From the NCBI RefSeq assembly GCF_024700885.2, contig NZ_CP117016.1: a stretch of DNA of 64,000 nt; one strand, 5' to 3'. Within the stretch, counting starts at the first letter, position 1. Every line of letters begins with the position of its first letter. The notes beneath the pieces are model-generated. The model searched no databases. It saw only the letters and a program-made list of their open reading frames with translations, and was not told the origin of the DNA. Position numbers and translations under genes: made by a program. This DNA is from Escherichia coli (GTDB taxonomy: Bacteria; Pseudomonadota; Gammaproteobacteria; Enterobacterales; Enterobacteriaceae). Positions 19,504-21,075 of the stretch are shown piece by piece.

Positions 19504-21075
19504 AGTTTGTTAAATATTTGTCCCGTTCGATATGAGCGATTTTTGGTATTCTTTGCCCATGAGGTTATGTACAACCTGCTCCAGGATAACCCTGTATTGG
19601 AGCAAAGATATGACAATTTCAAATTCGAATTTATTGAAACCGTTTATTACTGGTACTGAGTTGCCACCTTTTAAAGAGGATGTCTTTTCTAAAACAGAAG
19701 AACAATTTAAAAAAAGCCCCCATGGCAAATTGCTTTTCATTTCCGGAAATGAAAACTTAGTAAACATTTCAGCGGAAAAAATCGATGAAATAAAAAATAG
19801 CAAAGATTTCTTTTCAAATATTGTAAATATAATAATTTTACTCATTAAGCATCCTGAGAAAATTCTGCCCATTCTTCATGGTTGTCCTGCAGAGTCCATC
19901 GAACTCATTAAGAATGCGAAACGAACGGGGCAATGGTCATATGAGATGACTGATAAGAACGGGCAGAGTATTGAAGTGTCCTATATTTTCACTGATACCA
20001 TAGATAATAATTATGATGGAAAATTATGCTTAAAAATCTGTAACCCCTGCAACCAAAATGATTCTAGTACACATGAATATAAAATAGATCATCAACAGTT
20101 GAAAAATCACATAAGGCAACTTGAGGAGTGGGCCCTTCTTGAAAAGTTTTATGATAACAACGCTTATTATTCTAAACGTACAAAACAATTAGAGAAGAAA
20201 ATTGCCGATGCGGGGTTTATAGCAGGGAAGGTTAATGCCGATAACTTTAATGTAAAAGAGTTTAAAGACGATATAGCCTCGATGCTTTGTGAACAGCCCC
20301 CCATGCGAACACACCAGATATCTTCATCCGGATACTTATCTGCCGATAAAGTACCCGATCTCTATAAGACAAATTTGGAAGACGCGCAGAGAGATCTGAA
20401 AACAACACCGGTTGACATCGATGGTGTTAGTCTAAAACCAAAAACTCGGGAAAAAATTGCGAAAAAAACTGAGGAAGAAAATGCGAAAAAAATTGCGAAA
20501 CAAAATGCGAAGACCATTGAGGAGAAGAATAGTGAAAAAAACAAGAAAGAAACAAATCCTGAGGATAATTTTGTCTTAAAATTCTCACCGGAAGAAATCA
20601 ATGAGATGCTCCTAGATTACAGCGATGAAGAACAAAAAAAATTAAGACCTTTTTTCACTAGTGATCATATCTATTGTTTGTTTGATGCTTTTAGTCAGGG
20701 TTTGTATAATGTTGCTCGTAATGGCAGTCCACGGTATGCAGGTTTACTACGTCAAATAGCATCCAAGTGTGCGATATTACAAGATTTTGATCAACAATTG
20801 TTCTGGCGCACGTTTTCAGGAGGAGTCTTCCATCGACGTATCTCTGTGAACAGCGAGCCAGAAAAGACAGATGTATGGCGATTCAGTACACAATTTGATT
20901 TTCCATATATAAATGAAAACGGAGAGTTGTCCAGAACGGTACTCATGTTCGAGGGGGTTGCTGAAAGCAACTTTAAAGATATCGCCAATCATTCCAGCGA
21001 ATGTTTTTCTTACAGCTGTTATGCCGCCCCGCTGGATGCGAATGCTAAAAAATAGTGACGCCGGAGCTTGAAGTT
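19504..21075 (+). other. AT-rich single-gene islet 1 (putative horizontally acquired insertion between malZ and acpH)
   Basis: Marked drop in GC by eye relative to flanking core genes; flanking genes are adjacent in the canonical K-12 order; boundaries approximate. Confidence 0.55.
19610..21055 (+). CDS. Hypothetical protein, 481 aa from the RBS-supported ATG (507 aa if ATG 19532); K/E-rich low-complexity linker; possible secreted effector or toxin-like orphan
   Basis: Long ORF in AT-rich DNA; GGAG 7 nt upstream of ATG 19610; N-terminal EKIDEIKNSKDFF segment; no recognisable housekeeping family. Confidence 0.6.
   Translation: MTISNSNLLKPFITGTELPPFKEDVFSKTEEQFKKSPHGKLLFISGNENLVNISAEKIDEIKNSKDFFSNIVNIIILLIKHPEKILPILHGCPAESIELIKNAKRTGQWSYEMTDKNGQSIEVSYIFTDTIDNNYDGKLCLKICNPCNQNDSSTHEYKIDHQQLKNHIRQLEEWALLEKFYDNNAYYSKRTKQLEKKIADAGFIAGKVNADNFNVKEFKDDIASMLCEQPPMRTHQISSSGYLSADKVPDLYKTNLEDAQRDLKTTPVDIDGVSLKPKTREKIAKKTEEENAKKIAKQNAKTIEEKNSEKNKKETNPEDNFVLKFSPEEINEMLLDYSDEEQKKLRPFFTSDHIYCLFDAFSQGLYNVARNGSPRYAGLLRQIASKCAILQDFDQQLFWRTFSGGVFHRRISVNSEPEKTDVWRFSTQFDFPYINENGELSRTVLMFEGVAESNFKDIANHSSECFSYSCYAAPLDANAKK

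What the first reader, a model, noticed from the sequence alone, without database searches (positions are those of the whole stretch)
20448..20550. Short near-tandem DNA repeats encoding a K/E/A-rich linker inside the islet 1 ORF
The DNA reads ...gaaaaaattgcgaaaaaaactgaggaagaaaatgcgaaaaaaattgcgaaacaaaatgcgaagacc..., encoding EKIAKKTEEENAKKIAKQNAKTIEEKNSEKNKK. Repeated AAAATTGCGAAA / AATGCGAA units could undergo slipped-strand length variation and change linker length or reading frame between isolates. That would be a contingency-locus-like feature unusual for E. coli.
Basis: seen in the sequence. Interest (0 to 1): 0.4.

Follow-up and report, generated by a model that had tools for sequence, protein, structure and literature searches.

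The report
Variable 12-base repeat in orphan gene
A run of 12-base repeats inside an E. coli-only gene of unknown function really does differ in copy number between strains (2 to 10 copies, always in frame), but it changes slowly, like the known repeat tract in tolA, and is not a fast on/off switch.

Summary
Window 20450-20509 holds five imperfect 12-nt units (GAAAAAATTGCG-like, each encoding [E/K][E/K]xA), followed by four degenerate units up to 20557. They lie inside a 481-aa orphan gene (19610-21055, ECs0454 in O157 Sakai) on a 1.65-kb AT-rich islet between malZ and acpH.

Natural alleles carry 2-10 units (36 distinct linker alleles), every in-frame length difference between the aligned genomic loci lies in the tract, and about ten gains or losses of whole units sit on near-identical backgrounds, several with no flanking DNA substitutions.

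The contingency-locus reading fails. A 12-nt unit cannot shift the frame. The tract did not vary in about 310 O157:H7/O55:H7 genomes or in the sampled members of the 6-unit class, and variants are rare. The frameshifted alleles arise at A6-A8 runs in and near the tract and are mostly fixed in their lineages (25 of 27 O145-background genomes).

The feature is not unusual for E. coli: tolA has a 15-nt in-frame repeat in a helical K/E/A domain.

Verdict: a real coding VNTR in a probably helical spacer, and a new member of a known kind. The gene's function is unknown.

The parts
19423..21075 (.). AT-rich islet between the malZ stop and the acpH stop; absent from K-12
   Evidence: In K-12 the two stop codons are 4 nt apart. 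GC is 31-41% here against 52-58% in the flanks. Present in 1127 of 5426 complete E. coli genomes, always one chromosomal copy at this site.
19455..19504 (+). Strong hairpin followed by a U-rich stretch just after malZ, probably the malZ terminator. The A-run in its loop varies between strains (A5-A7).
   Evidence: RNA fold -32.6 kcal/mol, z = -6.45, 0 of 200 shuffles fold as well. Loop variation seen in the alignment.
19610..21055 (+). Orphan CDS of 481 aa (ECs0454 in O157 Sakai; RefSeq 'hypothetical protein' WP_000155934)
   Evidence: RefSeq annotation. No Pfam, NCBIfam or PADLOC family and no significant PHROGs family. phmmer against 1.84 billion representatives finds only fragments of the same protein. 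dN/dS is 0.4-0.9.
19610..20434 (+). N-terminal region (residues 1-275), fold unknown
   Evidence: No indels here in the alignment of 13 alleles. AlphaFold2 pLDDT below 50.
20450..20509 (+). Variable core of the tract: five 12-nt units (EKIA KKTE EENA KKIA KQNA). Copy number is 2-10 in other strains.
20510..20557 (+). Four degenerate 12-nt units (KTIE EKNS EKNK KETN). They keep the period, but no copy-number change was seen here.
   Evidence: TRF period 24/48 array 20440-20542; all repeat-bearing alleles align here without gaps.
20462..20468 (+). A7 run inside unit 2
   Evidence: Read from the sequence. No frameshift was seen at this particular run. In the 7-unit allele, an A8 run elsewhere in the tract (its KKNS unit) is A7 in O78 strain 3 and NCTC10444, giving a frameshifted pseudogene; GPEC1446 and KV7 have the same off-frame length.
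20486..20492 (+). A7 run inside unit 4
   Evidence: Read from the sequence.
20535..20541 (+). A7 run in degenerate unit 8, the site of the O145 frameshift (A7 to A8)
   Evidence: 25 genomes are identical with A8; RM12275-C1 has A7 and no other difference in 2436 nt.
20600..21052 (+). C-terminal region (residues 331-481), fold unknown. Its first helices (residues 321-350) are the best-predicted part of the model.
   Evidence: pLDDT 71-84 (5-unit allele) and 76-90 (10-unit allele) for the equivalent segment.

Best explanation
The tract is an in-frame coding minisatellite (VNTR). An ancestral 12-nt unit encoding four residues, [E/K][E/K]x[A], was amplified to build the K/E/A-rich middle of an Escherichia-restricted orphan protein. 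The 5' units are still alike enough (exact in-register repeats of 10-16 nt) to misalign during replication or sister-strand recombination. That adds or removes whole units (12, 24 or 36 nt) and never changes the frame. Events are infrequent, so alleles mostly behave as stable lineage markers, with occasional new variants. At the protein level the tract is most likely one continuous alpha-helix joining an N-terminal region of about 275 residues to a C-terminal region of about 150 residues. If so, each unit adds about 6 A of length and about 40 degrees of rotation (my calculation from standard helix geometry). Separately, A6-A8 runs in and next to the tract are the sites of the occasional +/-1 frameshifts that turn the gene into a pseudogene in some lineages. 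Shown: the repeat, the polymorphism, unit-register breakpoints on identical backgrounds, clonal stability, and the frameshift sites. Inferred: the slippage or recombination mechanism, the helical spacer role, and any effect on fitness.
For: The repeat is real and significant. In the alignment of 14 genomic loci, every in-frame length difference lies in or at the tract. Among about 130 proteins there are 36 linker alleles with 2-10 units; the only other length differences are two small C-terminal deletions. De novo events on identical or near-identical backgrounds: L003 to L005, -36 nt between two AAAAAATTGCGAAA copies with 0 differences in about 1800 flanking nt; O145 to UTME-3, -12 nt with 0 substitutions in 2446 nt; L007 to AR_0013, loss of a perfect GAAAAAATTGCG copy; and gains and losses of single EKTA/KKTA units around the common allele P0069. 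Both gains and losses occur. The O157 allele, whose longest in-register exact repeat is only 10 nt, did not vary in about 310 genomes, whereas the alleles that gave rise to the DNA-documented variants have 11-16-nt exact repeats. The non-repeat allele (31 genomes) shows no length variation. AlphaFold2 gives one helix across the tract, 28 residues long with 5 units and 43 residues long with 10 units, at local pLDDT 50-78. Precedent: the tolA repeat tract (PMC3477136).
Against: No mutation rate was measured. Population genomics gives only a rough upper picture, and my counts rest on identity bands plus samples of 60 rows, not on all 1127 tracts. The structure models are poor overall (mean pLDDT 39 and 43), and AlphaFold2 tends to draw K/E/A-rich sequence as a helix anyway. 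Like charges often sit at i and i+4 in perfect repeats, so the tract is not a textbook ER/K helix. dN/dS of 0.4-0.9, together with about 30 pseudogenised genomes, leaves open that the gene is under weak constraint and that tract length is simply neutral.
Confidence: 0.85

Rival explanations
1. It is a true contingency locus: the repeats and poly-A runs are selected hypermutable sequences that switch the protein's length or its ON/OFF state at high frequency, so that some cells in a population are pre-adapted.
For: Length variants and frameshifted alleles both exist in nature. One O145 genome has the frame restored by A8 to A7 with no other change in 2436 nt, which could be a reversion. A unit was lost even on the pseudogenised O145 allele, showing that mutation pressure acts without selection on the protein.
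Against: The units are 12 nt, imperfect (77% match) and few, and cannot shift the frame. There is no tract variation in about 310 O157:H7/O55:H7 genomes. 25 of 27 O145-background genomes share the same A8 allele. Variants are singletons beside parent alleles that are seen on hundreds of contigs. A7/A8 runs are short compared with the tracts of typical phase-variable genes (my own knowledge). The single A7 O145 genome could equally be the ancestral state or an assembly error.
Confidence: 0.06
2. The allelic diversity comes mainly from recombination that imports diverged alleles of the whole gene or its middle segment, not from local slippage.
For: The gene is mosaic. The L013-type allele has a middle segment with saturated synonymous divergence (dS 1.5-1.9) between flanks with dS 0.04-0.12. 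Pairwise flank distances do not form a clean tree with unit number.
Against: Several pairs differ only by whole units with zero substitutions over 1.8-2.4 kb, which import of a diverged allele cannot produce. The breakpoints lie exactly between adjacent near-identical units. Recombination probably shuffles alleles between lineages, but it does not explain how they arose.
Confidence: 0.05
3. The length differences are assembly or sequencing artefacts in a low-complexity A-rich region.
For: Single-base differences in homopolymers are a known weakness of long-read assemblies (my own knowledge). Singleton cases such as RM12275-C1 (A7) and LP5-1 (A5) could be errors.
Against: The 12-nt classes recur identically across many independent assemblies: 19 of 60 sampled genomes have 6 units and 7 of 60 have 7 units; the 3-unit allele is identical in the genomes from Beijing and Ireland and has the same tract in a third genome. 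The A8 frameshift is identical in 25 genomes from several laboratories. All in-frame variants keep the reading frame, which random errors would not.
Confidence: 0.02
4. The ORF is not a functional gene, so the repeat is just a non-coding minisatellite in a decaying islet.
For: No homolog outside Escherichia/Shigella in 1.84 billion representatives, no domain, high dN/dS of 0.4-0.9, several independent pseudogenisations, and no literature under the locus tags searched.
Against: A 481-codon frame is kept open in 35% GC DNA in most of the 1127 genomes. Every tract indel is a multiple of 3. There is a GGAG at the right distance from the ATG. dN/dS is below 1 in most comparisons, with long invariant blocks.
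Confidence: 0.02

Closest known systems
Intragenic tandem repeat tract of E. coli tolA (domain II), Zhou, Michiels and Aertsen 2012, PMC3477136
   Same: An in-frame repeat whose unit is a multiple of 3 nt, encoding a K/E/A-rich segment of a long helix that joins two domains. Copy number is polymorphic among natural E. coli. Units are gained and lost in register.
   Different: tolA has 15-nt units and 8-16 copies in a core gene of known function, a measured contraction frequency (6.9e-5, RecA-dependent) and shown phenotypic effects. Here the units are 12 nt with 2-10 copies, in an accessory orphan gene of unknown function, with no measured rate or phenotype. There is no sequence homology between the two.
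Simple-sequence contingency loci (phase-variable genes of Haemophilus, Neisseria, Campylobacter and others)
   Same: Repeat-mediated slippage creates heritable variation in a gene. Homopolymer runs here do produce ON-to-OFF frameshifts in some lineages.
   Different: Contingency loci use long perfect tracts of 1-8-nt units that switch frame or promoter strength at high, reversible rates within clones (my own knowledge). Here the units are imperfect, 12 nt long and frame-neutral; the A-runs are only 6-8 nt; and clones of 25-310 genomes are uniform or nearly so.
ER/K-type single alpha-helix spacers
   Same: A K/E-rich stretch free of Pro and Gly, predicted as one uninterrupted helix between two regions. 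The predicted helix length scales with the number of units.
   Different: The tract has Ala/Ile/Thr/Asn at fixed positions and a 4-residue period, which places like charges at i and i+4. It is much shorter than classical ER/K helices (my own knowledge). Nothing has been verified experimentally.
Generic E. coli MLVA loci (GECM-10: CVN001-017, CCR001)
   Same: VNTR loci of E. coli used as strain markers; several lie in accessory DNA and are absent from many isolates.
   Different: None has a 12-nt unit, and none of the 20 primers matches the 64-kb window with up to 3 mismatches (PMC8143711). This tract is not one of them.

Membership tests
In-frame intragenic tandem repeat (coding VNTR, tolA-like) | Head-to-tail copies of a unit whose length is a multiple of 3, inside a CDS | tested here: met
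   Period 12, 5.1 copies, 77% match; 0 of 5000 shuffles reach the lag-12 match; in codon register.
In-frame intragenic tandem repeat (coding VNTR, tolA-like) | Copy number polymorphic among natural isolates | tested here: met
   2-10 units and 36 linker alleles. Length classes in a 60-genome sample: 30 with 5 units, 19 with 6, 7 with 7, 1 with 3.
In-frame intragenic tandem repeat (coding VNTR, tolA-like) | Indels are whole units with breakpoints between repeat copies, arising on otherwise identical backgrounds | tested here: met
   L003/L005, O145/UTME-3 and L007/AR_0013 at DNA level; the P0069 series at protein level.
In-frame intragenic tandem repeat (coding VNTR, tolA-like) | Copy number changes the protein's performance | not testable with these tools
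   The function of the protein is unknown; isogenic alleles and a phenotype would be needed.
Simple-sequence contingency locus | Long perfect tract of short units (1-8 nt) | tested here: not met
   12-nt units at 77% match; the longest exact in-register repeat is 10-16 nt depending on allele. The homopolymers are only A6-A8.
Simple-sequence contingency locus | Repeat change switches expression or reading frame | tested here: inconclusive
   Not met for the 12-nt units, which are always in frame. Met for the A-runs: three independent +/-1 frameshifts were found, but they look like lineage-fixed pseudogenisations.
Simple-sequence contingency locus | High-frequency, reversible switching within a clone | tested here: not met
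   By population proxy only: 310 of about 310 O157:H7/O55:H7 genomes have the same tract; 25 of 27 O145-background genomes are identical; 3 genomes carry the 3-unit variant, against a parent class seen in 19 of 60 sampled genomes. A direct rate was not measurable here.
Simple-sequence contingency locus | The gene encodes a surface, host-interaction or restriction-modification function | not testable with these tools
   Orphan protein with no family, no significant structural relative by sequence and no reliable model.
ER/K single alpha-helix spacer | Continuous helix rich in E/K/R with stabilising i to i+4 opposite charges | tested here: inconclusive
   One helix is predicted across the tract and lengthens with unit number, but at pLDDT 50-78. 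Same-charge i+4 pairs are nearly as frequent as opposite-charge pairs.
GECM-10 MLVA marker set | Amplified by the published CVN/CCR primers; unit length as published | tested here: not met
   No primer matches the window with up to 3 mismatches, and no published unit is 12 nt long.

The most novel reading that the evidence does not exclude
The orphan protein is an interaction protein (for example with a host or a phage) in which the helical tract acts as a ruler. Tract length would then be under diversifying selection, and the A7/A8 runs would give reversible ON/OFF switching, making ECs0454 a low-rate but real E. coli contingency gene. A weaker variant of this reading is that the GAGGAG-N11-A_AAA_AAC motif beside the tract drives some -1 frameshifting, producing an N-domain-plus-linker product identical in its C-terminal tail to the one encoded by the O145 A8 allele.
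Probability: 0.07. Interest if true: 0.55.

Novelty: new member of a known kind. Interest (0 to 1): 0.3.

Why it matters
It adds a well-documented natural example of an in-frame coding repeat in E. coli, with a clear link between repeat perfection and instability. The O157 allele, with only 10-nt exact repeats, was stable in about 310 genomes. Alleles with 11-16-nt exact repeats produced the variants documented at DNA level. A non-repeat allele serves as a natural control. The tract is a possible typing marker for non-O157 lineages that carry the islet (about 21% of complete genomes). It also points to ECs0454 as a gene restricted to Escherichia, intact in most carriers, with no detectable relatives anywhere, whose function is entirely open. 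It does not reveal a new mechanism.

Tried and rejected
Function by homology: Pfam, NCBIfam, PADLOC and PHROGs gave nothing significant. phmmer against 1.84 billion representatives returned only fragments of the same protein. A profile search of PDB sequences gave only E >= 0.08 hits on the helical low-complexity part.

Function by structure: two AlphaFold2 runs reached mean pLDDT 39 and 43. I did not run fold searches because models this poor give meaningless matches.

Literature: the query 'malZ/acpH/tandem repeat' was uninformative. The tags ECs0454, ECs_0454, Z0502 and WP_000155946 gave no relevant paper. A generic search for in-frame VNTRs in E. coli found nothing on this locus.

Known MLVA marker: CVN003's pattern (absent from 85% of isolates; 5-7 repeats) looked similar. 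However, its unit is 15 nt, and neither its primers nor any other GECM-10 primer match the window, so I rejected this.

Programmed -1 frameshift at GAGGAG-N11-A_AAA_AAC: the downstream RNA is no more structured than shuffles (z = +0.63), and in K/E-coding sequence such motifs are expected by chance. Unsupported.

Promoter scan of the islet: no more sites than in shuffles.

Flanking direct repeats at the islet junctions: none seen.

Full report
SETTING

The window is E. coli chromosome: proY, malZ (17605-19422), an islet, then acpH (21076 onward, minus strand), queA and tgt. It is 100% identical over the query to strain 1190. In K-12 the malZ and acpH stop codons are 4 nt apart. Here 1,653 nt (19423-21075) lie between them, at 31-41% GC against 52-58% in the flanks, with no flanking direct repeats. 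The islet holds a strong hairpin just after malZ (19455-19504; -32.6 kcal/mol, z = -6.45) and one gene. RefSeq annotates that gene from the ATG at 19610 to 21055 (481 aa, 'hypothetical protein'). It is ECs_0454 in O157 Sakai. The islet is present in 1127 of 5426 complete E. coli genomes, always as one chromosomal copy at this site.

THE OBSERVATION

The quoted sequence and its translation are correct. Tandem Repeats Finder calls a period-12 array at 20451-20511 (5.1 copies, 77% matches) nested in period-24/48 arrays at 20440-20542. The lag-12 self-match of 0.78 is reached by none of 5000 dinucleotide-preserving shuffles, so this is more than A-richness. In codon register there are five clear units: GAAAAAATTGCG = EKIA, then KKTE, EENA, KKIA and KQNA (20450-20509). 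Four degenerate units follow (KTIE, EKNS, EKNK, KETN, to 20557). The whole K/E-rich middle of the protein therefore looks like the product of an old amplification of one 12-nt unit.

I aligned the window and 13 fetched loci chosen to cover the range of matched lengths. Every in-frame length difference falls in or at the tract, and among repeat-bearing alleles always in multiples of 12 nt. Their annotated CDS lengths are 1422, 1446, 1458 and 1470 nt. The 1386-nt CDS of L013 carries a replaced, non-repeat middle segment and is treated below. About 130 protein sequences from the large protein collection give 36 distinct linker alleles with 2 to 10 units. Examples are EKIA-KQNA in 469-aa proteins and EKIA-EKIA-ETIA-KKNA-KEIA-ETIA-KKNA-KKIA-ETIV-EKNA in a 501-aa protein. 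The only other length differences in these proteins are two small C-terminal deletions (P0020, P0033). In an even-step sample of 60 genomes the classes were 5 units (30 genomes, 17 of them the O157-type allele), 6 units (19), 7 units (7) and 3 units (1), plus two off-frame lengths and one partial match.

EVIDENCE THAT UNITS ARE GAINED AND LOST LOCALLY

Several pairs differ by whole units on identical or near-identical backgrounds.
- FDAARGOS_1281 (6 units) and EBJ003 (3 units) have 0 differences in about 1800 flanking positions. They differ by a 36-nt deletion between two exact AAAAAATTGCGAAA copies.
- UTME-3 has 0 substitutions against two O145 genomes over 1925-2446 nt and lacks one CTGCGG(G/A)AAAAA unit.
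- AR_0013 lacks one perfect GAAAAAATTGCG copy relative to MRY15-131, with 4 substitutions elsewhere.
- At protein level, the common 7-unit allele P0069 (seen on 375 contigs) is surrounded by rare relatives with one unit fewer (P0040, P0041, P0045) or one more (P0099, P0108, P0115), with 0-2 background differences in the pairs I read.

Gains and losses both occur. The O145 case lies on an allele that is already a pseudogene, so the changes reflect mutation, not only selection.

WHY IT IS NOT A CONTINGENCY LOCUS

First, a 12-nt unit cannot change the frame.

Second, the tract is stable in well-sampled clones.
- The O157-type locus is found at >=99% identity in 311 genomes. One of these is the USDA5905 deletion remnant, which lacks the tract.
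- The O157-type 5' half is found at >=99% in 309 genomes, and the O157-type tract with 60-nt flanks in 310. A one-unit indel would have pushed the tract query below 95% identity.
- The 3-unit allele occurs in 3 genomes. Its 6-unit parent class made up 19 of 60 sampled genomes, 18 of them with identical scores.
- The allele that lacks repeats (L013 type, 31 genomes) shows no length variation. This is a natural control.
- The invariant O157 allele has at most a 10-nt exact in-register repeat, whereas the other alleles I examined, including the parents of the DNA-level events, have 11-16 nt. That fits homology-dependent misalignment.

Third, the feature is not unusual for E. coli. tolA carries 15-nt in-frame repeats in its helical domain II, with 8-16 copies among 234 isolates and a contraction frequency of 6.9e-5 that depends on RecA. 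Its authors mention about 30 E. coli genes with in-frame repeats (PMC3477136).

FRAMESHIFTS

- A7 to A8 at the run equivalent to 20535-20541. It is identical in 25 genomes of the O145 allele group. RM12275-C1 has A7, an intact CDS and no other difference in 2436 nt. I cannot tell whether that is reversion, ancestry or assembly error.
- A8 to A7 inside the tract of the 7-unit allele in O78 strain 3 and NCTC10444. GPEC1446 and KV7 have the same off-frame length.
- A6 to A5 near 19776 in LP5-1.

These look like lineage-fixed pseudogenisations.

THE PROTEIN

No Pfam, NCBIfam or PADLOC family matches, and the only PHROGs hit is insignificant. A full HMMER scan of 1.84 billion cluster representatives returns only pieces of this same protein, and there is no significant PDB relative by sequence. 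It is an orphan restricted to Escherichia and Shigella.

dN/dS between alleles is 0.4-0.9, so constraint is weak. Even so, a 481-codon frame is kept open in 35% GC DNA in most carriers, a GGAG lies at the right distance from the ATG, and every tract indel is a multiple of 3. I therefore treat it as a real gene.

AlphaFold2 models are poor (mean pLDDT 39 and 43), so I ran no fold search. The tract, however, is modelled as one continuous helix: 277-304 in the 5-unit allele and 277-319 in the 10-unit allele, at local pLDDT 50-78. It is followed by the best-predicted helices of the protein. The most likely role is therefore a helical spacer between two regions whose length varies with unit number. 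This is an inference. The charge pattern is not that of a textbook ER/K helix.

COMPARISON AND NOVELTY

The tract meets the defining features of an in-frame coding VNTR of the tolA kind: a tandem unit that is a multiple of 3, natural copy-number polymorphism, and in-register indels on identical backgrounds. It fails the defining features of a simple-sequence contingency locus: short perfect units, frame or promoter switching by the units, and high within-clone variability. It is not one of the GECM-10 MLVA loci, since the published units are 6-59 nt with none of 12 nt, and none of the 20 primers matches the window (PMC8143711). I found no paper under the locus tags I searched. It is a new member of a known kind.

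LIMITS

Allele counts come from BLAST identity bands and samples of 60 rows, not from all 1127 tracts. No mutation rate, expression data or phenotype is available. The function of the gene remains unknown.

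Noticed in passing
window 19610-21055: The gene carrying the tract is a strict orphan. A HMMER scan of 1.84 billion cluster representatives finds only fragments of the same Escherichia/Shigella protein, and no protein-family library recognises it. It sits alone on a 1.65-kb islet of 31-41% GC that is present in 21% of complete E. coli genomes.
   Followed up: partly
window 19455-19504: A strong hairpin (-32.6 kcal/mol, z = -6.45) followed by a U-rich stretch lies just after malZ, inside the islet, and is probably the malZ terminator. The A-run in its loop differs between strains (A5, A6, A7).
   Followed up: partly
L013 (THO-010) 1141-1260; equivalent to window about 20440-20600: 31 genomes carry an allele whose middle segment has no repeats and is very diverged (dS 1.5-1.9) between flanks with dS 0.04-0.12. 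This mosaic suggests replacement of the linker by recombination with an unknown, much more distant allele. It shows no length variation.
   Followed up: partly
L014 (O55:H7 USDA5905) 1094-2834: A deletion joins a truncated malZ to the last 336 nt of the islet gene, removing the tract and most of the gene. RefSeq marks both as partial pseudogenes.
   Followed up: no
window 20519-20542: GAGGAG lies 11 nt upstream of A_AAA_AAC in the zero frame, which from my own knowledge resembles the dnaX-type -1 frameshift arrangement. A -1 shift would give the same short tail (KKQERNKS*) as the O145 A8 allele. The downstream RNA is unstructured (z = +0.63), so nothing supports this.
   Followed up: partly
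window 21025-21052 (C-terminus AAPLDANAKK): Two rare alleles have small in-frame deletions at the extreme C-terminus (P0020 lacks PLD; P0033 lacks two residues). These are the only length differences seen outside the tract among about 130 proteins.
   Followed up: no
window 21076-21081 compared with K-12 (L016 1538-1543): The last codon and the stop codon of acpH differ synonymously between islet-bearing strains (CTC TGA) and K-12 (TTA TAA). The right islet junction therefore reaches into the end of acpH without changing the protein.
   Followed up: no
window 19610-21055 across alleles: dN/dS between alleles is unusually high (0.4-0.9 overall, and about 1 in some C-terminal comparisons). This is consistent with weak constraint or with diversifying selection; the two were not separated.
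   Followed up: partly
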